Source: a virus. From it: 64,000 bases of DNA. The position numbers and the translations under genes are program-made. Below, one piece after another: positions 14,165-60,498 of the stretch. The stretch's first letter is position 1. Every line of letters starts with the position of its first letter. The notes under the pieces were generated by a model. The model saw only the letters and a list, made by a program, of their open reading frames with translations, was not told where the DNA came from and ran no database searches. The stretch covers positions 43,030-107,029 of the IMG/VR virus record IMGVR_UViG_3300033156_000775; one strand, written 5' to 3'.

Positions 14165-14422
14165 ATGTCTGATGAAGGAAACGTTTGGACCACTCCAGAG
14201 CCTAAGGTGCCTCCTACCATACAGGTAGGGGACAAAGAATTCAAGGTTGAGCTAGAGAGTGACTTTGTGTCCACTATACTTGGGATCGTAAGATCCCTAG
14301 GTATAGGTAGGTTCCTAGTGAAGTACAATGGCTCAGTGATCACACCAGCTGAAGCACCAGACACATTCGAGGACTATGCTGGAAAAACAATCGTAATAGA
14401 GCCAGTTGATGAAGCTGGATAA
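14165..14422 (+). CDS. Ubiquitin-like (beta-grasp) protein
   Basis: 85 aa ending IVIEPVDEAG (C-terminal Gly); first gene of E2-E1-JAB operon. Confidence 0.7.
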   Translation: MSDEGNVWTTPEPKVPPTIQVGDKEFKVELESDFVSTILGIVRSLGIGRFLVKYNGSVITPAEAPDTFEDYAGKTIVIEPVDEAG

Positions 14423-14454
14423 GAGCTTCTACACACTGGCTCACTTTTTTTTTC

Positions 14455-15606
14455 ATGGAGGATGTTTATATGAGGCTTGTTTTCAAGAAGGATGGTGAAA
14501 GGCCTCCCAACTTCTATATTGAAATTTCCTATGAAGAGAAAGACCTGATTAACAATTATATCTATGAGAGTGGAGTTTACTATATCAGTGACAAGATCTA
14601 CCTGACCAATGCCACTGTGGCTAGAGCTCTAGGTCTCTCATCCAGATATTTGGACTATCATCCATTTATGAGTAGTTTTACTTCTAGGGAGCTCTTAAGT
14701 GCAGCCAAGATAGACATTGAAGATCCTGATGAAAGACAAAAGCTCATCTCTTCAGTGTACAAATACCTGAAAAACAGGCTTGAGATAGCCATGTCCAAGA
14801 CTGTTAGGGATGAACGTTCTATTCCCCTAGACATATCTCCATCCCTAGGAGAAATGAATGTAAGCCTAGAGGAAGTAGGAAAGATAGGGACACCTTTCCT
14901 CATCTCTATCGGGGACAAGGTGTTTGAGGCTAAGCTAGTAAAGGAGATTGACAGCTTCAGAGACTACATGCAGAGAAGGCTGAAGCAGATAGTGGGGGCA
15001 TATAGAAACCACATTACAGCTACTCTCAGTGCCCTACGTGACGAGTATGATAGGAAACTAGAGGAAATAGAAAAAACCAGGGAAACAATGATCCCAATGC
15101 CTAACATCACTCTTAGTGACTTAGCTACTGGCATGAGAATATGTAGGAACAACCAGTACCTAGAGGTTTATCTGCCAGTGAAGGTAGAGATCAAAAGAGT
15201 CTTTTACAACAAGAAATCTTTTACATTGAAAAAGGAGTACTGGTGTACTCTCAGAGGACTAGCTGGACTAGCACTGGATCGTGATCTTACAATAGTGTCA
15301 ACCAAGTTTGTGAGGTCTAAGAGGGCAAGTAGGGGAGTTAGGCATCCTAACGTGAATGATGATGGAATGGTGTGTCTTGGCTATACTAGACAGATCCTAG
15401 GTAGGAGGCTAAACGACATACATGATGCTTACACATGGATATATTCAGTGGTTGATTTGCTGTCCGTACCTAACTTCGATGATGCATACGATGTCCATGT
15501 TTCACAATGGGCTAGGGAGGTCTTTGATGCTCTGGAAAGTGGCCACTCAAGTGAGGTAGTAGAGGAAGTGGCTACTCTTCCTTCAGAAGTAGTGTGGAGG
15601 ACATAA
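14455..15606 (+). CDS. E2/UBC-like conjugating enzyme with N-terminal coiled coil
   Basis: HPNVNDDGMVCLG matches the E2 HPN...GxxCL catalytic motif. Confidence 0.75.
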   Translation: MEDVYMRLVFKKDGERPPNFYIEISYEEKDLINNYIYESGVYYISDKIYLTNATVARALGLSSRYLDYHPFMSSFTSRELLSAAKIDIEDPDERQKLISSVYKYLKNRLEIAMSKTVRDERSIPLDISPSLGEMNVSLEEVGKIGTPFLISIGDKVFEAKLVKEIDSFRDYMQRRLKQIVGAYRNHITATLSALRDEYDRKLEEIEKTRETMIPMPNITLSDLATGMRICRNNQYLEVYLPVKVEIKRVFYNKKSFTLKKEYWCTLRGLAGLALDRDLTIVSTKFVRSKRASRGVRHPNVNDDGMVCLGYTRQILGRRLNDIHDAYTWIYSVVDLLSVPNFDDAYDVHVSQWAREVFDALESGHSSEVVEEVATLPSEVVWRT

Positions 15607-15609
15607 CTA

Positions 15610-16248
15610 TTGTACGCTAGGCAGTCTAGTTTAAATCTCCATATTCCAAGTGACATTGGGATCATCGGGTGTGGAGGCATAGGCTCATGGGTAGCCATCT
15701 ACTCTGCTATGGGAGGAGTAAGGACAATCAGCTTGTTTGACCCTGACATCCTAGAGATCCATAACCTGAATAGACTTCCATATCCTGAGAGTGCTGTGGG
15801 CATGAAGAAAGTAGATGTCCTTAGAGAATACCTAGTCCACATTAGGCCTCAGAGTGAGGTATTTGCCTACGATAGACGTATTTCAAGGGACAATGCAACC
15901 CTACTTCACAAGTGTAAAATAGTCTTTGACTGTACAGATAGCACCAGAGCCCATAGGTTGATAGAGGGCTTATGGGTCAAGAAGAGCTTTACTGATCTGA
16001 TTAGAGCCTCATATGATGGTGACCATTACACCTTGTCCAAGAACCTTCGTTTAGAGAGCATGTCTTGGGGAAATGAAACCTCTGGGTACCAGATTGTCCC
16101 CAGCTGGGTCATCCCAGCATCGTTCATAGCCCAGATTGCATGTTGGTTGGCATATGCTGAGGATGCCCCTGAAAGATACTTTCTTTCTAACAGTTTAAGG
16201 AATACTGTTAACCGTTTCATTTATGGAGGTAAGACCACAATTGACTAG
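15610..16248 (+). CDS. ThiF/E1-like adenylyltransferase
   Basis: GIIGCGGIGS, DPDILEIHNLNR, KVDVL, DCTDS. Confidence 0.92.
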   Translation: MYARQSSLNLHIPSDIGIIGCGGIGSWVAIYSAMGGVRTISLFDPDILEIHNLNRLPYPESAVGMKKVDVLREYLVHIRPQSEVFAYDRRISRDNATLLHKCKIVFDCTDSTRAHRLIEGLWVKKSFTDLIRASYDGDHYTLSKNLRLESMSWGNETSGYQIVPSWVIPASFIAQIACWLAYAEDAPERYFLSNSLRNTVNRFIYGGKTTID

Positions 16249-16350: not shown

Positions 16351-16878
16351 TTGATTGCCAGGATCTCCAGCCTAGTTTCTAGACTTCATACTGAGTGGCT
16401 AGGTTACTTGGACTATGAACAGGTTGAGGACAATGGTAGACTTGTGTACAGAGCTACAGAGATTACTATCCCAGATCAGGAGGTCACATACTCATCGGTA
16501 AACGTTAACGATCCTGCTATAGGGATAGGTAAAGGAGTCATCCACTGTCATCCCTGGAAGGGATATTCATCTCATTCTAACACTGATGAGGACTACGTTG
16601 ATAGGAATCATCCCTTCAGCATAGTTGTAAACAAGGACTTGGACTTCTCTGTAAAAGCTGTAGTAGACGTCCCATGTGGGTCTAGGATACTAGTAGATGG
16701 GGAAGTAGAAATTGAATATCCAGATGTGGATACCAAGTCCTTCCTAGAGGAGGCTAAGAGCAAAATCAAGGAGAAGAAGTATGTCTACAGATACTCTGCA
16801 TCTAGGAAAAAGTCATCAGGGATAACTGCTATGGAGTATGGGTACCTAGATCCATACTCATATTCCTGGATGCCGTAG
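16351..16878 (+). CDS. JAB/MPN metallopeptidase (start uncertain)
   Basis: EWLGYL...HCHP-x6-HSNTD JAMM motif. Confidence 0.85.
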   Translation: MIARISSLVSRLHTEWLGYLDYEQVEDNGRLVYRATEITIPDQEVTYSSVNVNDPAIGIGKGVIHCHPWKGYSSHSNTDEDYVDRNHPFSIVVNKDLDFSVKAVVDVPCGSRILVDGEVEIEYPDVDTKSFLEEAKSKIKEKKYVYRYSASRKKSSGITAMEYGYLDPYSYSWMP

Positions 16879-20604: not shown

Positions 20605-21360
20605 ATGACAATGGATCTACTTATAGAGCCCGATCTAAAAGAGTTTATCAGTCGTTTACCAGATATTAGTCTTGACCCTCCAAGCGTCCATCTAGTTATG
20701 CTAGCTATAAGAAGTAGGAAGGCTAAGCAGATCCTAGGGATAAAGATCAAGGACTTGGTTGTAGAGAGAAGGATTATTAGGCCTTCTAAATGGAGAGAGA
20801 AATACTTCAAGACTGTGTATAACCTAGCTCTCCTACAGCATCATGGACTCTACTACTATAAGGGGTTAGAGATACCTCTACAAGCTAAAGCCATCTACGC
20901 TACGTTGACTCCAAGAAATGTATATCATGCCATAGCTGACCTGATGAAGGAGAACATATCCTATCTATTTCAGGGAGATGACTCAGCTAGGTATCAGCTT
21001 ACAAAGCAGGATATCCGTTTCTTTGGATGCTTACATAGACACAAAATGAGGACTAACAACTTTGTCACTCTAGATCTTGATAACAATGATGAAAAGATCC
21101 TGAAAGAGATCCTAGACTATGTTTCAGTCCTACCTCTATTCTTGGTCACTGAAACGTCCAGAGGCTATCATATAGTGTTGGATTTATCCAAGTCTGATGA
21201 TGCTAGAGCCTTCTATGGACAGGAAAAGATAATGCAGAAGCTAGGACTGAAATTTGCAGATAAGGGATTAGAGTTTCAAAGAGATAGTCAGGAGCCTGTT
21301 CCAGGGACTTTATATTTCAAGGAGAATGGGTCTCCTCATTATGTTAAGATTTTATATTAG
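20605..21360 (+). CDS. AEP-superfamily primase/polymerase-like protein
   Basis: TLDLD (DxD) and ETSRGYH motifs. Confidence 0.6.
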   Translation: MTMDLLIEPDLKEFISRLPDISLDPPSVHLVMLAIRSRKAKQILGIKIKDLVVERRIIRPSKWREKYFKTVYNLALLQHHGLYYYKGLEIPLQAKAIYATLTPRNVYHAIADLMKENISYLFQGDDSARYQLTKQDIRFFGCLHRHKMRTNNFVTLDLDNNDEKILKEILDYVSVLPLFLVTETSRGYHIVLDLSKSDDARAFYGQEKIMQKLGLKFADKGLEFQRDSQEPVPGTLYFKENGSPHYVKILY

Positions 21361-21403: not shown

Positions 21404-21604
21404 ATGCTAGGTATTCCAGAAGCCCAAGCAGAGGTGCTATTCGATATAATACAGCTTTGCAACAAGCATGGAATTGACATTGTTGATCTTGAGGGTTATC
21501 TACAAGATCTCATATGGATTGAGGATCTTACAAGAGCTTCAGGGAAAGGTGTAGTCCGGACTACACTTAGAGAAGCTCTGGAAAGACTAGGCACTACAGA
21601 TTGA
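21404..21604 (+). CDS. Small hypothetical protein (contains palindrome)
   Basis: ORF. Confidence 0.45.
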   Translation: MLGIPEAQAEVLFDIIQLCNKHGIDIVDLEGYLQDLIWIEDLTRASGKGVVRTTLREALERLGTTD

Positions 21605-21909
21605 AAGAGAGAAGCTTATGGACTAATGGACTAATATTTACAAATTTATTTCTGTTTAGGAAACAAATAATGTAGTCCGGACTACATCTTAACTTAATCA
21701 TTGGAAATTTATCTGGTACTTTAGGTGAAGGAAATGAATGAGATATTGTTTAAACTAGGACATAGGATAGATGAGCTTGAAGAGAAACTGAACCTAGTCA
21801 TTGCAGCTAATCAATATCCACATCTAAGAAACCAGATCCTAAGGAGAATCTTGAGTAATAGTGCCCGTTCTTAGTACTCCTACCACTACAAATTATCTCT
21901 ATTTCCACA

Positions 21910-21921
21910 ATATTTATATTT
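21910..21921 (+). promoter_or_regulatory. Putative TATA box for the ncRNA array
   Basis: ATATTTATATTT about 50 nt upstream of first RNA unit. Confidence 0.35.
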
Positions 21922-21969
21922 GAAAGGGCTATCTTGAGTCCTTCACTGGTAAACGAATAATGAAACGTG

Positions 21970-22028
21970 ATGTGACAATGATGGAGCTTACAAACACGGA
22001 GTCTGTTGAGCTCCATTAGCTCTCACAT
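21970..22028 (+). ncRNA. Y-RNA-like unit 1 (minimal)
   Basis: ATGTGA/TCACAT outer stem, TGATGGAGCTT/GAGCTCCATTA inner stem, conserved TACA. Confidence 0.7.
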
Positions 22029-22038
22029 AAGTTGATTG

Positions 22039-22170
22039 GTGTGACTTGGACAGGAGCTTACAGGTCTAAAGCGTCACCCTGCTAAGGTGAAGATCTAGGT
22101 TCAAGTCCTAGCATGTCCACCATACTGGGCATGTGGCTGAAGTGGTTTAGAGCTCCTGTCACCTTCACAC
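22039..22170 (+). ncRNA. Y-RNA-like unit 2 with circularly permuted tRNA (anticodon GCT, internal ACCA)
   Basis: GACAGGAGCT/AGCTCCTGTC; anticodon arm TCACC-CTGCTAA-GGTGA; T arm CTAGG-TTCAAGT-CCTAG; acceptor CATGTCC-ACCA-tact-GGGCATG; D elements GCTGAAGTGG. Confidence 0.85.
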
Positions 22171-22180
22171 AGATTAAGTG

Positions 22181-22272
22181 ATGTGCCTAGCTAGGAGCTT
22201 ACAAACTGTGGCTATGGATACACGGTTAAGCTGGTAGGTCCAGCTGGTTAGAAGCTCCTAGCACTTGCACAT
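22181..22272 (+). ncRNA. Y-RNA-like unit 3
   Basis: ATGTGC/GCACAT; GCTAGGAGCTT/AAGCTCCTAGC; internal hairpins. Confidence 0.72.
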
Positions 22273-22279
22273 ATCTAAG

Positions 22280-22363
22280 ATGTCCCATAGACAGGAGCTT
22301 ACAAACTGCCCCAACCAAACTAAAGCTGGCAACTCTAGAAGAAAGCTCCTGTCACCTGGACAT
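22280..22363 (+). ncRNA. Y-RNA-like unit 4
   Basis: ATGTCC/GGACAT; GACAGGAGCTT/AAGCTCCTGTC. Confidence 0.72.
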
Positions 22364-22392
22364 ATCCTGTAAACACACTGGAGGATGATGAA

Positions 22393-22590
22393 ATGTCTAT
22401 ACTTAGGGTGGTAGTTGGACAGGACATTCAGGAGCTAGAAGTATCTGAGAACATGGCTAGACTGTCAGATGAGGAGATACTTAGCTTTGTAAGGGAAGCT
22501 ACAAATAGACCTGTAGATCCAGAGGACTTTGTAGTGGATAGGACAGAAAACAACAACATAGTGGTTAGGCCTAGAGCTGTCTATGGATAG
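22393..22590 (+). CDS. Ubiquitin-like small protein ending RPRAVYG
   Basis: GGAGG SD; beta-beta-alpha-beta-beta pattern; C-terminal Gly. Confidence 0.65.
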   Translation: MSILRVVVGQDIQELEVSENMARLSDEEILSFVREATNRPVDPEDFVVDRTENNNIVVRPRAVYG

Positions 22591-22733
22591 TGACAATATT
22601 GGATGAGATATTATCCATTCCAGATCCTAGTGGCCCTAGAAATTTCATTAAGAGGAATCTCAGGGTAGGAAAGGCTATAGATCAATACGGACATATCTAT
22701 CCTACTTATATATCTAAAGCTATCTATGGATAA
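22590..22733 (+). CDS. 47-aa micro-ORF ending KAIYG (same tail as upstream Ubl)
   Basis: GTG overlapping upstream stop; MTILDEILSIP...YISKAIYG. Confidence 0.5.
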   Translation: MTILDEILSIPDPSGPRNFIKRNLRVGKAIDQYGHIYPTYISKAIYG

Positions 22734-22743
22734 GGGCTGAACA

Positions 22744-22896
22744 TTGACTGATAATTCTAAACACATATTAACACCGAAGAAACTATTAGAGAAGTTTCTT
22801 AAAGTGTCTCTTCCTGCCTATATAATTGGGCTAGAGATATTCCCTGAATCTGGAGCTATATGGATAATCAAAGAAGATAATATGGATGTCCATTGA
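22744..22896 (+). CDS. 50-aa micro-ORF
   Basis: TTG start; fills the gap before RNA unit 5. Confidence 0.35.
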   Translation: MTDNSKHILTPKKLLEKFLKVSLPAYIIGLEIFPESGAIWIIKEDNMDVH

Positions 22897-22898
22897 AG

Positions 22899-23027
22899 GT
22901 GTGCTTTATGGATAGGAGCTTACAGCACACAGGGCTACCAGATCCTGTAGTATGGGTTCAAGTCCCGTCATAAGCAGCAGCTTGGCTATGTAGTGCAACT
23001 GGACAAGAGCTCCTATCACCTGCACAC
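22899..23027 (+). ncRNA. Y-RNA-like unit 5 with permuted tRNA-like domain (8-nt anticodon loop)
   Basis: GATAGGAGCTT/GAGCTCCTATC; D stem GTGC/GCAC; CAGGG-CTACCAGA-TCCTG; ATGGG-TTCAAGT-CCCGT; D loop AACTGG. Confidence 0.82.
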
Positions 23028-23068
23028 AATAGCTTAGCGGGTCCTCACTTTCCTGTCTAAGTTACCTG

Positions 23069-23199
23069 GTGTACCATGATGAGAGCTTACAAACCCAGTG
23101 TCGGTGGGAGAGATGTGGGTTCAAGTCCCACTATCCCTACATGGGATATGGTCTAACTGGCTGAGGACGCTTAATGTATAGCTCTCATCTCCTGTACAC
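23069..23199 (+). ncRNA. Y-RNA-like unit 6, YrlA-type topology (T arm, loop-closed acceptor stem, D arm)
   Basis: GATGAGAGCT/AGCTCTCATC; GTGGG-TTCAAGT-CCCAC; TATCCC-tacat-GGGATA; GTCT-AACTGGCTGA-GGAC. Confidence 0.82.
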
Positions 23200-23416
23200 T
23201 TTAATCCTCGTAGCGAAGTTAGAACGGATATGAGTTGATCTAATTTGCCAATCGATGTAAATCCATCTGAGCGTTGTATCTTTACTGAATTACCAGTTAA
23301 ATGTAGAATTAGAGCTGAGTTTAATCCAAAACCTGAGCTCTTAGTCAAGTTCTGTAGTATTTGTCCTGTTTTGATGGTGATAAAAAATAATATGAAATGA
23401 AAAGGAGAAATAGGTT

Positions 23417-24871
23417 ATGTCAGTAGATGAAAGAATACCCATATATCAAGAGCTCTTCCAGTCTATACTAGATTGTCCACATGGAAACCTAGAGGAGACA
23501 TTCAGAGTCCATAAGGAAGTCCTAGAGAAGAACCCACTGTTCTATATGAAGATGGCTGCTTGGTACATGAAGAATGGGATGGTTAGAGACCACAAAGTTG
23601 CTTTTGTAAAGACATTGATGGAGGCTGATGATCCTACTTTGAGGGATGAGGGATGGGCTCTTATTCAGAGGCTGCCCATACACTTGTTAGCTCAGGTAGT
23701 CCGGTCTACAAAGAAGACTAAGGCACTACGGTCAGCCGTGAAGCACAAGCTAGCTGAAATGCCATATAACAGGCTAGTGTCTGAGATCCTTAGATCATCT
23801 AAAGACCTTAAGAGCATGGTTGTTGCTCTACACATACCTACAACCAAGTCTTCAAACTTGAACTTTGAGACTATAGGAACTGAATTGTTCACTAAGAATC
23901 GTCCAATAAGGAGAGTCTTTGCTCAGCTAAGGAATGAGGAAGACCCAGATAAAGTAGCTGTCTTGCTTGAGAAGCTACCTATCCCATCCTACATTGCCAT
24001 GACCTCTATCAAGGTACGTACACCTGAAATAGTGAGAGTGCTAGTCAAACGTATGACTCCTAATGAGCTTATACAGTCTCTTAACATGCTGGGTAGGTTG
24101 AGAGCTATCAAGCCTAACATGGACATTATTAGGGGGAAGCTAGATAAGCTTGTATCTGACCCTAGAGTGAACGCTATGAGAGTCCTCAACATCCTACAGC
24201 ATCTAGAGCCAGCTCTAGTTCCCTATGAAGTGTTTGAGGTACTTGAGAGAGCTGTGTCCAGAAAAGCAAAGAGCATAAGCAAGATAGATGCTAGGGTCTC
24301 CCTCCACATTGACACTTCAGGTAGCATGGAGCCTGCTATTGAGATAGGGAAGATGCTGGCTACATCACTATCCATTGCATGTAAAGAGCCTCCTACGGTA
24401 TACAGTGTGTCTAGCACTCCATTCAAGGTTCAGCCTAGTAGCTACACTCCCTCAGGATGGAAGGAATCTTTCAGTCTACTGAGAGCTAATGGTGCTACCC
24501 CTCTTGGAGCAGGAATATCCCTAATGAAGCAGCATGGAGACACATGTGATGTCATCATACTGGTCACCGACACAGGGGAGAACTCATTCCCCAAGTTTGC
24601 TGATGAGTACCAGACATTAGGCAACAAGCCTAGAGTGATAATCCTCAATGTCAGCAGACACCCTGATAGAGGGTTCTTAGGGTCCCTCAGAAGAGCTAAT
24701 GTATCCTTTGAAATGCTACAGGTTAGAAGAGTAGATCAATACTCAGTGGACCAAGTGGTTACCCTTATAGGAGAAAGTAGCCCCTTCAAGACCATAATGG
24801 AGATAATGAACACTGATGTCCCATTGAGACCTACATGGACTAAGAAGCCCCAGTACTGGCTGAAGAAATAG
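23417..24871 (+). CDS. TROVE/Ro60-like helical protein with C-terminal vWA domain
   Basis: Long all-helical N-terminal region (NPLFYMKMAAWY...RDHK; MTPNELIQSLNMLGR); MIDAS DTSGSM, GATPL, ILVTD. Confidence 0.75.
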   Translation: MSVDERIPIYQELFQSILDCPHGNLEETFRVHKEVLEKNPLFYMKMAAWYMKNGMVRDHKVAFVKTLMEADDPTLRDEGWALIQRLPIHLLAQVVRSTKKTKALRSAVKHKLAEMPYNRLVSEILRSSKDLKSMVVALHIPTTKSSNLNFETIGTELFTKNRPIRRVFAQLRNEEDPDKVAVLLEKLPIPSYIAMTSIKVRTPEIVRVLVKRMTPNELIQSLNMLGRLRAIKPNMDIIRGKLDKLVSDPRVNAMRVLNILQHLEPALVPYEVFEVLERAVSRKAKSISKIDARVSLHIDTSGSMEPAIEIGKMLATSLSIACKEPPTVYSVSSTPFKVQPSSYTPSGWKESFSLLRANGATPLGAGISLMKQHGDTCDVIILVTDTGENSFPKFADEYQTLGNKPRVIILNVSRHPDRGFLGSLRRANVSFEMLQVRRVDQYSVDQVVTLIGESSPFKTIMEIMNTDVPLRPTWTKKPQYWLKK

Positions 24872-24914
24872 ACAAGTGTAGCCCGGACTACATTTTGAGG
24901 GAGGATACTTAGCG

Positions 24915-25286
24915 ATGGCTAATGATGAGCCTTTGACATTAGATCAAGTTATCTCTCTAGTCAGAGTCACAATGAAATCTATAGATCCAGTTAGGCTCTT
25001 CTATGAGCTAAAGAAGAAGAGAGTCAAGTTCTTAAGAGAAAGGTCAGTGGAAATAGCAAGAGCTGCAATATCCCTCCATATTCTTGGACTTCCAATAAAC
25101 ACCACTTTCCTCTCGTGCATACTAGATATTGATCCGCAAATAATACGTACAGTTATGCATACTCTAGGAGACAAGCATGTCTTTACCCTTAAGCGTGAAG
25201 GGTTTGGGAGTAAGGGATATGGATATGAGTGGACACCTAATCCAGCTATTCTAGGAGACTTTATAAATTGTCTAGAGGAAGAGTAG
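24915..25286 (+). CDS. Winged-helix-like protein
   Basis: HTH plus wing pattern (INTTFLSCIL...MHTLGDKHV...YEW). Confidence 0.45.
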   Translation: MANDEPLTLDQVISLVRVTMKSIDPVRLFYELKKKRVKFLRERSVEIARAAISLHILGLPINTTFLSCILDIDPQIIRTVMHTLGDKHVFTLKREGFGSKGYGYEWTPNPAILGDFINCLEEE

Positions 25287-26083
25287 GCACATTTGTGTCA
25301 GCTGTTCTACCTAAAACTAGAAAGGTAACTAGAGTGACTGATCTTGGAGTCAGAGAGTACTTGGTTACTAGGAAGGTCCCTCCTAACATCTATGTCTTCA
25401 GGTCTAGAGGGATATATGCTGAGCCACTAGCCATAGCTGCTGACATGGCTGATCGAATGGAATACTTTGAGAGCTTATGTCTACCAAGAGTCTATGTGTT
25501 CCCTGTAGTCCGGACTACACATTGGCTAGCTGTCCCACTAGCAAGGGAGCACTATAAGAAACATGTAAAGTATTCAGCCCCTTTACCTCTAATCTTTACT
25601 CCTAATAATCTAAGTCCGTTAGACCCTGTAATGGCTAGGGTCTATAAGGGCAAACGCACATACTTGATGTTTGAGGATTACCACTACAAATATGATCCAG
25701 AATTGGTTGAGAGAGCTAGGGACTATTTAATCTCACTGAGAGCTTCCTCTTATAGGAAAGACACTATGATTGATGCTCTTAAGCTGCCAGCTGAGCTTAG
25801 GGAGGCAGTTAAGATAATTGCTGACAGCATTACTCCTCCCCTAGAAAGAATGGTTAAGCATTCCCTTAGCCTTGTAAATGCTGAGTTTGTTTCTTTACAG
25901 GATATGGGAGCTGGAAGGTATAGAGTCACTTATCTTTACAAGGGAATTAAGGATTATATTGACATAGATGACTCCCTGTTCTGTCTAAATATCGGGATAT
26001 GTGTGGATGGACATGATAGGGATTTTGACTTAGCTAGTGGAATCCTAGTTAAGCATGAAAGAGATGATTACGTTTATGACTAG
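25268..26083 (+). CDS. Uncharacterised protein with C-terminal GICVDGHDRDFDL Cys motif (possible E2-like partner)
   Basis: ORF in TROVE operon; E2-like role is inference only. Confidence 0.45.
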   Translation: MSRGRVGTFVSAVLPKTRKVTRVTDLGVREYLVTRKVPPNIYVFRSRGIYAEPLAIAADMADRMEYFESLCLPRVYVFPVVRTTHWLAVPLAREHYKKHVKYSAPLPLIFTPNNLSPLDPVMARVYKGKRTYLMFEDYHYKYDPELVERARDYLISLRASSYRKDTMIDALKLPAELREAVKIIADSITPPLERMVKHSLSLVNAEFVSLQDMGAGRYRVTYLYKGIKDYIDIDDSLFCLNIGICVDGHDRDFDLASGILVKHERDDYVYD

Positions 26084-30049: not shown

Positions 30050-30565
30050 GTGTCCGTAATAAGAACTGTCAAGGAAGAGCCATGTTCTCAGTGTGGTAGA
30101 CTAACAAACGCATACGATATGCTGATGGGTAGGCTATGTCCAGAATGTATAGCTAAACGAGCTATTACTTTTGCTAGGAACATTAGGAATCTATATGGAA
30201 TCGATGAGCCTGAAGAGTTAGACCCTTATTATTACAAATTAGCTACTTTGCCCCTGATAGATCATAGCAATGACATTGATGCTCATTTACATTCCATAAC
30301 AAACTATAGAGATCCTAAGAGGATACCAATAATCCTTAAGCGTTTAGAGAATATCTGGAGAAGGTTTCCAGACCTTAGACTAGGACAGCTTATAGAAAAT
30401 GTCTTCCCTAACAGAGGGATAGCTGGACATAGTGAATCAGCATATTATCTGGAAGATGAAGAGTTTATTGAACGAATAGAGAAATTTTATAGCAATATAA
30501 AGTCTGAAAAAGAGATAGACCATACCAAGCTAATAAGAGATGAAGAGAATGTCCAAAATAGATAG
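30050..30565 (+). CDS. Zn-finger plus conserved phage domain
   Basis: CxxC...CxxC; RDPKRI...WRRFPDLRLGQLI. Confidence 0.6.
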   Translation: MSVIRTVKEEPCSQCGRLTNAYDMLMGRLCPECIAKRAITFARNIRNLYGIDEPEELDPYYYKLATLPLIDHSNDIDAHLHSITNYRDPKRIPIILKRLENIWRRFPDLRLGQLIENVFPNRGIAGHSESAYYLEDEEFIERIEKFYSNIKSEKEIDHTKLIRDEENVQNR

Positions 30566-31211
30566 GCAATTCCTACATGAGTTTCTTTACAGAGGAAAAG
30601 AGCTAGAATCCCTAGAAGATAAACAAGTTACGCTGTGTGGGTGTGGAGCTCTAGGGACTTGGACAGCTGTGTTCCTAGCTAGGAGTGGACTTAGACATTT
30701 CAGGCTGATAGATATGGATAAGGTTGAGATACACAACACTTCTACTCAAGCATTCTTCCTAGAGAACCTTAACCAATACAAGGCTACTGCTCTGTCCAGA
30801 ATCCTCTACAGAATCAACAGAGCTAGATCCTCAATCTACAATGAGGAGCTAACAGCTGACAATGTGTCCCTAGCTTTCGATGACACAGACTTGGTTATTT
30901 GTACATTTGACAACTATAAATCTAGAAAGCTGGTTAGGGACAAGGCCCTAGAGCTAGACTTTCCAACAGTGTTTGCAGGTATGAATGGAAGCCTAAACTA
31001 TGGGGAGGTAGCTTGGGCTGAGGATTACAATCCTCCTAGAGATCCTAAATCTAGAGATATAGACCCATGCAATTATCCATTAGCAACAACTTTAGTGGTG
31101 TTGACTTCAGCTGTACTAGCTGAGGTCTCTCTAAACTATCTCCTTAAAGGATTCAAGTTCTATAAGCCATTTGGCTTTTCATTTAGCTCTTTCCAGGTAA
31201 TTTCAAAATAA
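30549..31211 (+). CDS. Second ThiF/E1-like adenylyltransferase
   Basis: CGCGALG, IDMDKVEIHN, KA, TFDNY, DPCNYP (candidate catalytic Cys). Confidence 0.9.
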   Translation: MSKIDRQFLHEFLYRGKELESLEDKQVTLCGCGALGTWTAVFLARSGLRHFRLIDMDKVEIHNTSTQAFFLENLNQYKATALSRILYRINRARSSIYNEELTADNVSLAFDDTDLVICTFDNYKSRKLVRDKALELDFPTVFAGMNGSLNYGEVAWAEDYNPPRDPKSRDIDPCNYPLATTLVVLTSAVLAEVSLNYLLKGFKFYKPFGFSFSSFQVISK

Positions 31212-31821
31212 GAGCTCTAGCATTATTTGTAGTCCGGACTACATAGAGGTGAAAGATGAATGAGAGTTCCTAACCCCAAAGAGAAGAAATATTGGTATAA
31301 GAGAATAGGTTCTAAGTTCTCTAGAGAGTTTGATATTAATCGATATCTGCAAGATTTCAATGAATGGGAAAACAAATTACTTCATTTTGTAGGATCTGTA
31401 TTAGGGACATTCTTGGCCTTAATGAGGAGGCTCAATTGAGTGATGAAGGGAACAGAACTTTATGAACAAGCAATAAGGAAAGCTACAAGATGGAATCATG
31501 GAAGGCTGCCAGACACAGGAATGCAGCTCATCTTTGTCTATAATGAGCTGAAAGACAAGATTGTTATCGAGAAATAATTTAGGAGACATAGAAGCATAAG
31601 TATACATCGGAGATGGAGGGATGAGTGGTAGATTTGCTCTCTTAAACAAAGAGTGGCAGAGAACTGAGAGGGAAATAATGGAGCTAATTAGGCAATTTAG
31701 ATTTGGACTTGATCAAATAAAGAATAGATATCCAGATGCAGGTATTGGAGATACAGAGACAGATGAGCTTATTGTTGAGGAGATCTATAATCAAATTCAC
31801 TAATTGGAGGTAGGTTCAATA

Positions 31822-51377: not shown

Positions 51378-51593
51378 TGTAGTCCGGACTACACAATATG
51401 GAGGAGAGATGTTGAGTACACCTGAAAAATGTCCACTGATCAAAACATGTAAAGAGAAGGTACCCAAAGACATCTTTGAAGACATATGTATGACTCCTGG
51501 ATGGATTTACTGTGAAAGTGCAGTTGAGGAAGCTAAGAAACACTTCAAGCTCCCTAGAGAATGGATGAAAGAGTATGAGGAGGAGATGGAGTA

Positions 51594-60173: not shown

Positions 60174-60498
60174 GTGTAGTCCGGACTACATTCAAGAGGC
60201 ATATACATTGACAGATGCTCGTGAATCTATATTCAAGAACAAAGCAAATGAATTGTTAGAGTTCTTGATTGAGAAGGACAGGAAATATGCTGGTGACATT
60301 CCATTAGGGAATATTAAGGAATATTCAACAAAGTGGGACATATCACCTCTCAAGGTGTTGCTTGTTAGGATTCATGACAAGCTCAATAGAATATCAAAGA
60401 ATCTAGATGACAAGGAAATACTTAGAGAAGAGATCAGGGACATTTGGGGATACTCATTGATCATCCTAATCTTGATGGATGAAGGTGTTGAAGTGTAA
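60151..60498 (+). CDS. DUF1599-like nucleotide-modification-associated protein
   Basis: KDRKYAG...VRIHDKLNRI...DIWGYS. Confidence 0.65.
   Translation: MVDVEELKCSPDYIQEAYTLTDARESIFKNKANELLEFLIEKDRKYAGDIPLGNIKEYSTKWDISPLKVLLVRIHDKLNRISKNLDDKEILREEIRDIWGYSLIILILMDEGVEV

What the first reader, a model, noticed from the sequence alone, without database searches (positions are those of the whole stretch)
22393..22733. Two tandem micro-proteins inside the RNA array share a [RK]A[VI]YG C-terminus
Seen: the 65-aa Ubl-like ORF ends RPRAVYG. An unannotated 47-aa ORF starting on its stop codon (22590..22733) ends SKAIYG (DNA agagctgtctatggatag vs aaagctatctatggataa), with otherwise unrelated sequence. 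Known: E1/ThiF enzymes adenylate a C-terminal Gly. Inference: two different modifiers share one E1 recognition tail and are co-transcribed with the Y-like RNAs, which links protein conjugation to the Ro-RNP.
Basis: partly seen in the sequence, partly recalled or inferred. Interest (0 to 1): 0.78.

Follow-up and report, generated by a model that had tools for sequence, protein, structure and literature searches.

The report
Copied tail on a strain-specific micro-ORF
A small, conserved ubiquitin-like gene sits among Y-RNA-like genes next to a viral Ro gene. The second "micro-protein" that shares its tail lies in a strain-specific insert that carries a copied 20-base end of the first gene, so there is no evidence that it is a second modifier.

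Summary
ORF1 (22393-22590, 65 aa) and ORF2 (22590-22733, 47 aa) end in xA[VI]YG, encoded by a 17/19-identical DNA repeat. Both lie between Y-RNA-like units 4 and 5.

Only ORF1 is conserved. Seven distant homologues (61-66 aa, 33-44% identity) keep an invariant P-x-x-x-Y-G end, and the model is beta-grasp-like. The order Y-like RNAs, ORF1, Ro-like vWA gene, 271-aa gene, ThiF#2 recurs in a distant 128-kb virus.

ORF2 lies in a ~308-bp segment that is absent from three close relatives and from that distant virus. Among 5.8 billion proteins it has one 98%-identical match. It has no ATG start and no SD-like motif, lacks the invariant Pro, and shows no similarity to ORF1 outside the tail.

The tail DNA occurs three times (22570, 22713, 22849). 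The third copy carries a 2-nt gap that shifts a third micro-ORF out of the YG frame. The tail is therefore shared through a copied ~20-nt segment, not through independent selection by an E1.

Both insert bodies are open in the repeat's phase (p~0.003) and have gene-like codon usage. Expressed accessory micro-proteins that borrowed the tail therefore remain possible (~12-15%).

Other notes of this scan cover this same genome only.

The parts
21970..22363 (+). Y-RNA-like units 1-4 (21970-22028, 22039-22170, 22181-22272, 22280-22363). Unit 2 contains the tRNA-like module that is called tRNA-Ser(GCU).
   Evidence: Each unit folds as a 6-bp outer helix, an internal loop and a ~11-bp helix, with z -3.2 to -4.7. 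tRNA call at 22048-22122. Shared scaffold repeats.
22393..22590 (+). ORF1: a 65-aa Ubl-like (beta-grasp-like) protein that ends RPRAVYG. This is the conserved gene.
   Evidence: SD-like GGAGGA upstream. Codon score 0.44, above all spurious ORFs. Six close and seven distant homologues, with invariant L4, E35, P60, Y64 and G65. AF2 pLDDT 85 with a bb-a-bb layout. VIA Z 4-5.6 to MoaD, Fubi, ISG15, TtuB and ThiS.
22570..22590 (+). R1: the tail-encoding repeat, copy 1 (last 6 codons plus the stop of ORF1).
22591..22898 (+). Strain-specific variable segment (~308 bp, 35% GC) made of two unrelated bodies, each closed by a copy of R. It is absent from L001, L002, L003 and L004.
   Evidence: Alignment A2; sequences. 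GC content. The bodies are unrelated to each other and to ORF1, z<1. RNA fold z -0.85. No counterpart in the 128-kb relative.
22590..22733 (+). ORF2: a 47-aa micro-ORF with a GTG start on ORF1's stop. It has no ATG and no SD-like motif, and ends SKAIYG.
   Evidence: One 98%-identical match only. Codon score 0.24, the best of its six frames. AF2 single-sequence pLDDT 60.6, helical.
22713..22733 (+). R2: tail repeat, copy 2 (end of ORF2). It differs from R1 by 4 changes, all G-to-A or C-to-T.
22744..22896 (+). ORF3: a 50-aa micro-ORF with a TTG start. It enters R3 in the same phase (S-G-A-I), but a 2-nt gap in R3 shifts it past the YG-stop.
   Evidence: Codon score 0.26.
22849..22867 (+). R3: tail repeat, copy 3, with a 2-nt gap. 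In its own YG-stop frame only 10 codons follow a stop.
22899..23199 (+). Y-RNA-like units 5 and 6 (22899-23027, 23069-23199). The 5' loop/stem of unit 5 contains the same 9-mer as the end of the tail repeat.
23417..24871 (+). 484-aa Ro-like protein with a vWA/MIDAS-type D-x-S-G-S motif.
   Evidence: No Pfam or PDB sequence hit. Atlas neighbours at 0.95-0.98 include TROVE and vWA_Ro60 clusters. 59% identical orthologue directly after the ORF1 homologue in L004.
25268..26083 (+). 271-aa conserved protein of unknown family, syntenic in L004.
   Evidence: 51% identity, E 6e-90
30540..31211 (+). ThiF#2: a 223-aa E1-like adenylyltransferase, the candidate activator of ORF1.
   Evidence: PF00899 3e-27. 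The L004 orthologue is 56% identical and lies 5 kb downstream of the ORF1 homologue.
14165..16248 (+). Separate module: an 85-aa ORF ending DEAG, a 383-aa E2-like protein (weak UQ_con hit) and ThiF#1 (212 aa).
   Evidence: ThiF#1 is not the orthologue of the L004 ThiF.

Best explanation
ORF1 is the genuine, conserved component. It is a 61-66-aa beta-grasp-like protein with an invariant free P-x-x-x-Y-G carboxyl end. It is encoded with Y-RNA-like genes directly upstream of a viral Ro-like vWA protein. Its most likely activator is the syntenic E1-like ThiF#2; that pairing is inferred, not shown.

ORF2 is not a conserved partner. It lies in a ~308-bp lineage-specific segment built as repeat, body A, repeat, body B, repeat. 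Each repeat is a copy of the last ~20 nt of ORF1. The shared tail is therefore inherited from one DNA segment that was duplicated by recombination or insertion at ORF1's 3' end. The same 9-mer recurs in the neighbouring Y-like unit, and close relatives are also rearranged at this spot.

ORF2 may be translated by coupling to ORF1. Nothing shows that it is a modifier, and the sister cassette has already lost the tail by a frameshift.
For: Shown:
- ORF2 and the whole segment are absent from L001, L002 and L003 (ORF1 98, 95 and 91% identical). In those loci ORF1's stop is followed after ~20-25 nt by unit 5. They are also absent from L004/G001, where the repeat occurs once.
- ORF2 has one hit (98% identity) in 5.8e9 proteins, none among longer proteins and none in phage records.
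- There are three copies of the repeat. The third has a 2-nt gap and lies in another frame.
- The bodies are unrelated to each other and to ORF1.
- R1 and R2 use identical codons for A, Y and G. All 4 differences are GC-to-AT transitions, and the insert has 35% GC against 43% in ORF1.
- The ORF1 family tail is invariant at P, Y and G, but ORF2 has S at the Pro position.
- ORF2 has no ATG and no SD-like motif. It was not called as a gene on this genome.
- For ORF1: family, fold, synteny with Ro and ThiF#2.
- A separate 85-aa Ubl candidate sits beside ThiF#1.
Against: Both insert bodies are open in exactly the phase set by the repeat, p~0.003 by shuffling.

ORF2 and ORF3 score 0.24 and 0.26 on a codon model. 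The median for real-gene pieces is 0.27, and only 1-2% of spurious ORFs reach these values. Each is the best of its six frames.

A second, non-identical contig appears to carry ORF2 with one conservative change, R22K.

The stop/start overlap of ORF1 and ORF2 is the kind of arrangement used for translational coupling.

Absence from relatives could also reflect easy loss by recombination between the direct repeats, rather than a recent gain.
Confidence: 0.6

Rival explanations
1. Tail-sharing accessory micro-proteins. ORF2, and formerly ORF3, are real translated cassettes. They captured ORF1's C-terminal hexapeptide so that the same tail reader accepts them. That reader could be ThiF#2, a peptidase or the Ro vWA/MIDAS site. 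They would act as alternative modifiers, competitors or decoys.
For: Open frames in the phase of the repeat for both cassettes, p~0.003. Gene-like codon usage. Y and G are kept, and R-to-K and V-to-I are conservative changes. The start overlaps ORF1's stop. A second contig carries ORF2 with R22K.
Against: ORF2 is not conserved in four related loci. The invariant Pro is lost. There is no beta-grasp signal, and 47 aa with a helical low-confidence model gives none. The sister cassette is frameshifted out of the tail. ORF2 has no ATG and no SD-like motif. Each E1 already has a better Ubl candidate.
Confidence: 0.14
2. The repeat is a nucleic-acid signal and not a peptide signal. It could be a processing or termination site, or a protein-binding or recombination site, that punctuates the Y-RNA/mRNA precursor. 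Any ORF that ends in it would then acquire xAxYG-stop incidentally.
For: The 9-mer at the repeat's end also forms the 5' loop/stem of Y-like unit 5. Four copies cluster within 334 bp. The flank of R2 matches the variant unit-5 stem of L002 over 14 nt. Copy 3 is kept as DNA although it is out of frame.
Against: In ORF1 the tail is conserved at protein level, with synonymous changes at P and V between the window and L004. Codon identity in the tail (6/8) is not significantly above that in the body (9/20). The insert has no stable RNA structure, z -0.85. No R-like element precedes the other Y-like units.
Confidence: 0.15
3. Chance resemblance of two short ORF ends.
For: None beyond the shortness of the motif.
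Against: 17 of 19 identical nt, where 0.09 matches are expected in 64 kb. A third copy lies 135 nt further on.
Confidence: 0.01

Closest known systems
Prokaryotic and archaeal Ubl modifiers or sulfur carriers with E1-like ThiF/MoeB enzymes (ThiS, MoaD, TtuB, SAMPs, bacterial Bil/Bub-type Ubls)
   Same: ORF1 is a small beta-grasp-like protein with a free C-terminal Gly on a flexible tail. An E1-like adenylyltransferase is encoded nearby. One family member carries one extra residue after the Gly, as Ubl precursors do.
   Different: The tail is P-x-x-x-Y-G with a single Gly, not GG. No Pfam, NCBIfam or PADLOC model matches it. It is encoded inside a Y-RNA-like array beside a Ro-like vWA gene, not beside its E1. 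No E2 or JAB gene is seen next to ThiF#2, and no PP-loop sulfurtransferase is found in the genome.
Ro60/Y RNA (Rsr-YrlA) loci of bacteria and phages
   Same: An array of Y-like RNAs with tRNA-like modules lies next to a Ro-like protein, and RNA ligase and phosphoesterase genes lie nearby. tRNA-like Y RNAs next to Ro60 are described in PMC4201824.
   Different: Here a protein-coding Ubl-like gene is interleaved with the RNA genes, and in this strain two extra micro-ORF cassettes as well. The papers searched describe no such link.
Nidhogg-type viruses linked to Helarchaeota (preprint 10.1101/2021.07.29.454249)
   Same: The gene content is similar: Ro60 with TROVE plus vWA, an RNA ligase, several ThiF/E1-like genes, and a genome of ~100 kb with terminal repeats.
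   Different: Identity with those records was not shown. Only two ThiF genes were found by Pfam, and no C57 peptidase hit. The preprint does not mention the small YG-tailed gene.
Repeat-bounded cassette arrays and target-site duplications (integron attC, att-site duplication at gene 3' ends)
   Same: The layout repeat, unique body, repeat, unique body, repeat starts at the 3' end of a gene, and the gene end is regenerated.
   Different: The bodies are only ~115-125 nt and the repeats ~20 nt. No recombinase was linked to them, and no other such array occurs in the genome.

Membership tests
Ubl/beta-grasp modifier (applied to ORF1) | beta-grasp fold | tested here: inconclusive
   The AF2 model has pLDDT 85 and a bb-a-bb layout. 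Foldseek's best hits are ubiquitin and Ubls, but only at E~0.1. VIA-wide gives Z 4-5.6, and the list is almost entirely beta-grasp domains (MoaD, Fubi, ISG15, TtuB, ThiS, bacterial Ubl), but Z<8 is not decisive.
Ubl/beta-grasp modifier (applied to ORF1) | conserved exposed C-terminal Gly | tested here: met
   All 13 close and 7 distant homologues end in YG. One has one extra residue. P60, Y64 and G65 are invariant. pLDDT drops to 58 in the last residues, which fits a flexible tail.
Ubl/beta-grasp modifier (applied to ORF1) | cognate E1-like adenylyltransferase in the same genome or neighbourhood | tested here: met
   ThiF#2 lies 8 kb downstream. Its 56%-identical orthologue lies 5 kb downstream of the ORF1 homologue in L004.
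Ubl/beta-grasp modifier (applied to ORF1) | adenylation, thioester formation or conjugation of the C-terminus | not testable with these tools
   This needs biochemistry.
Ubl/beta-grasp modifier (applied to ORF2) | homology to, or the fold of, a Ubl | tested here: not met
   hhalign against the ORF1 family aligns 3 tail columns, probability 1.8%. BLASTP finds nothing. No Pfam, PHROG, NCBIfam or PADLOC hit. The protein is 47 aa, and the single-sequence model is helical with pLDDT 60.6, which is low confidence.
Ubl/beta-grasp modifier (applied to ORF2) | conservation with the system across relatives | tested here: not met
   Absent from L001-L004. A single 98%-identical match in the collections.
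ORF1-family tail motif | P-x-x-x-Y-G-COOH | tested here: not met
   For ORF2, Y and G are present but the invariant Pro is Ser.
Ro60/TROVE-vWA protein (the 484-aa neighbour) | TROVE domain plus a vWA domain with MIDAS | tested here: inconclusive
   No Pfam TROVE hit at E<=0.1 and no PDB sequence hit. Language-model neighbours at 0.95-0.98 include TROVE/vWA_Ro60 clusters. A D-x-S-G-S motif is conserved between the window and L004.
Y RNA-like ncRNA | a long stem formed by the 5' and 3' ends with an internal loop or bulge, plus a variable (tRNA-like) module, encoded next to Ro | tested here: met
   Six units fold this way, z -2.5 to -4.7. tRNA-like modules. No Rfam Y RNA family reached threshold.

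The most novel reading that the evidence does not exclude
The 3' end of the Ubl-like gene acts as a docking point for a small, fast-turnover array of micro-ORF cassettes. Each cassette acquires the same xA[VI]YG carboxyl tail. A virus could then feed different small proteins to one tail reader (the ThiF#2 E1 or the Ro vWA site). This would be a modular 'tail-sharing' set of modifiers or decoys attached to a viral Ro/Y-RNA particle.
Probability: 0.12. Interest if true: 0.75.

Novelty: new variant of a known kind. Interest (0 to 1): 0.4.

Why it matters
The claim of two modifiers for one E1 does not hold on present evidence, and that removes the most striking part of the finding. Two results remain useful.

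First, there is an undescribed family of ~63-aa Ubl-like proteins with an invariant P-x-x-x-Y-G end. In two divergent large viruses it is encoded with Y-RNA-like genes, a Ro-like vWA protein and a dedicated E1-like enzyme. This gives a concrete, testable link between Ubl chemistry and a viral Ro RNP.

Second, a short gene end has been copied three times and closes unrelated micro-ORFs. This is a small, clean example of how new micro-ORFs can inherit a functional tail.

Tried and rejected
- Searches for more relatives. Viral-contig scans with ORF1, P0013, P0014, the Ro alignment and DNA patterns found only one relative, L004. Genome-contig scans with P0013 and P0020 found none. The family alignment A3 was too diverse for locus search.
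- Phage records. blastn and tblastn found nothing meaningful.
- ORF2 as a truncated, diverged paralogue of ORF1: rejected.
- Units A and B as tandem duplicates of each other: rejected, z 0.46; protein similarity is only in the tail.
- The insert as a structured RNA or an extra Y-like unit: rejected, z -0.85 and no scaffold.
- Frameshift or readthrough fusion of ORF1 to ORF2: unlikely. The ORF2 frame is closed until 15 nt before ORF1's stop, and no slippery site is visible there.
- Nucleotide-level constraint on ORF1's tail: not significant, 6/8 against 9/20 identical codons.
- A virus-encoded sulfur-relay role for ORF1: no PP-loop ATPase was found. The host's enzymes were not examined.
- Protein Atlas look-up of ORF1: uninformative, best score 0.83.
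- A genome-wide scan for other arrays bounded by gene-end repeats: none found.

Full report
**1. What is there**

The window is the last 64 kb of a 107,029-bp virus record with direct terminal repeats. Almost all genes are on the + strand.

Six RNA units lie at 21970-22363 and 22899-23199. They share one scaffold: a 6-bp outer helix, an internal loop and a ~11-bp helix. They fold far better than shuffles, with z -2.5 to -4.7. Unit 2 holds the tRNA-like module that ARAGORN and Rfam call tRNA-Ser(GCU).

ORF1 lies between units 4 and 5 at 22393-22590. It is 65 aa, has an SD-like GGAGGA upstream and ends RPRAVYG. ORF2 (22590-22733, 47 aa) starts with a GTG that overlaps ORF1's stop and ends SKAIYG. 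The two tail-coding stretches match at 17 of 19 nt. A degenerate 20-mer of them is expected 0.09 times per window by chance.

**2. ORF1 is a real, conserved gene with a conserved tail**

The word-indexed search found six homologues at 86-98% identity. The exhaustive profile search found seven more of 61-66 aa at 33-44% identity. All of them align to the very end of the protein. L4, E35, P60, Y64 and G65 are invariant, so the end reads [RH]-P-x-[AP]-x-Y-G. One member has a single extra residue after the Gly.

The AlphaFold model has pLDDT 85 and a bb-a-bb layout with a floppy last five residues. Foldseek's best hits are ubiquitin and Ubls, but only at E~0.1. The exhaustive structural scan gives Z 4-5.6 against an almost purely beta-grasp list: MoaD, Fubi, ISG15, TtuB, ThiS and a bacterial Ubl. 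This is consistent with a Ubl fold but does not prove it. No Pfam, PHROG, NCBIfam or PADLOC model matches ORF1.

**3. ORF1's neighbourhood is conserved**

In a 128-kb IMG/VR contig (L004/G001), two Y-like RNAs are followed by an ORF1 homologue that is 44% identical. A 484-aa orthologue (59% identical) of the window's Ro-like gene follows 32 nt later. Next come a 271-aa orthologue (51%) and a ThiF that is 56% identical to ThiF#2. That ThiF aligns with ThiF#1 over only 63 residues, at 33% identity.

The Ro-like protein has no Pfam or PDB sequence hit. Its language-model neighbours include TROVE/vWA_Ro60 clusters, and it keeps a MIDAS-type motif.

ThiF#1 has its own module: an 85-aa ORF ending DEAG, then an E2-like protein, then ThiF#1. 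The simplest pairing is therefore the 85-aa ORF with ThiF#1 and ORF1 with ThiF#2. This pairing is an inference from synteny.

**4. ORF2 is not conserved**

Three metagenome loci carry ORF1 at 98, 95 and 91% identity. In all three, ORF1's stop is followed after ~20-25 nt by unit 5. The window has ~308 extra bases there, 22591-22898. L004 lacks them too. The repeat occurs once in that 128-kb record, and the insert bodies have no counterpart there.

ORF2 has one hit in 5.8 billion proteins, at 98% identity with an R22K change. No longer protein matches, and there is no meaningful phage hit. That hit and an ORF1 homologue are both recorded on contigs of 2906 bp, so probably on one contig.

ORF2 has no ATG and no SD-like motif. 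It was not called as a gene on this genome. It has Ser where the family has the invariant Pro. It shares nothing with the ORF1 family apart from three tail columns. Its single-sequence model is helical and of low confidence.

**5. The tail is a three-copy DNA repeat**

Copies lie at 22570-22590 (end of ORF1), 22713-22733 (end of ORF2) and 22849-22867. The third copy has a 2-nt gap. A third micro-ORF (22744-22896) enters it in the same phase, reading S-G-A-I where ORF2 reads S-K-A-I and ORF1 reads P-R-A-V. Because of the gap it then runs on for ten more codons instead of ending YG-stop.

The bodies between the repeats are unrelated to each other and to ORF1, z<1. The segment has 35% GC against 43% in ORF1. 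All four differences between R1 and R2 are GC-to-AT transitions.

The last 9 nt of the repeat also form the 5' loop/stem of unit 5, and four of the eight window copies of that 9-mer lie within 334 bp. The flank of R2 matches, over 14 nt, the variant unit-5 stem seen in L002, where unit 5 is itself degenerate. This spot is therefore prone to recombination in the lineage. The shared tail reflects common descent of ~20 nt and not convergence on an E1.

**6. What keeps the alternative alive**

Both bodies are open in exactly the phase fixed by the repeat, p~0.003 by shuffling. Codon-usage scores of ORF2 and ORF3 are 0.24 and 0.26. These sit at the median of real-gene pieces, are reached by only 1-2% of spurious ORFs, and are the best of six frames. 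The cassettes are therefore coding, or were until recently.

Direct repeats also make loss easy, so absence from relatives does not prove a recent gain. I put ~50% on ORF2 being translated at all, and ~12-15% on its tail being read by the same enzyme as ORF1's.

**7. Co-transcription**

Co-transcription could not be tested. A 16-nt palindrome occurs 23 times in the window against 0 expected, often just after stop codons. It flanks the block 21687-24876 (copies at 21550, 21671 and 24877) and does not occur inside it. If the palindrome punctuates transcripts, then the RNA array, ORF1, the cassettes and the Ro-like gene form one unit. This is inference only.

**8. Identity of the virus**

The gene content resembles the Nidhogg viruses linked to Helarchaeota: Ro60 with TROVE plus vWA, an RNA ligase and several ThiF genes (preprint 10.1101/2021.07.29.454249). 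I could not confirm identity. The papers searched describe no YG-tailed small gene and no Ubl link to Ro.

**Verdict**

Noticed in passing
window, 23 sites, e.g. 21550-21565, 21671-21686, 24877-24892, 31228-31243, 51378-51393, 60175-60190: A 16-nt perfect palindrome (TGTAGTCCGGACTACA) occurs 23 times on the + strand listing, against 0 expected. Many copies lie just after stop codons (Ro-like gene, ThiF#2, others). It is a likely transcript punctuation, terminator or regulator site. It is absent from L004, which shows a different intergenic palindrome before its Ro-like gene.
   Followed up: partly
L002:300-430: In this close relative, Y-like unit 5 keeps only its 5' half, with a variant stem, and lacks the T-arm-like module and the 3' stem. 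The site after ORF1 is therefore rearranged in more than one lineage.
   Followed up: partly
window 14165-16248: An 85-aa ORF ending DEAG lies directly upstream of a 383-aa protein with a weak UQ_con hit and of ThiF#1. This looks like a self-contained Ubl-E2-E1 module. The following 175-aa ORF (16351-16878) gave no Pfam hit, and a Prok-JAB search of the genome found none, so a JAB component is unconfirmed.
   Followed up: partly
window 21203-21222 (inside ORF 20605-21360): The 251-aa protein, which another note of this scan reads as AEP-like, contains an internal in-frame R-A-F-Y-G-Q. Its DNA matches the tail repeat with 3 mismatches. This is probably coincidence.
   Followed up: no
G000:C1:20000-23000 (outside the window): A long run of diverged 285-bp tandem repeats lies inside what looks like a coding region of the same virus genome.
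   Followed up: no
P0015 (distant ORF1 homologue): This member ends YGD. The one residue after the Gly would need trimming, as in Ubl precursors.
   Followed up: no
window 22048-22122: The only tRNA call in the window, Ser(GCU) at 53 bits, is embedded inside Y-like unit 2 (22039-22170). It is a tRNA-like module of that RNA and not a free-standing tRNA gene.
   Followed up: partly
L001:3890-4000 (P0005/P0025): A 102-aa N-terminally extended 'homologue' of ORF1 in the collections arises from a gene call that starts inside Y-like unit 4. It is not a longer isoform.
   Followed up: partly
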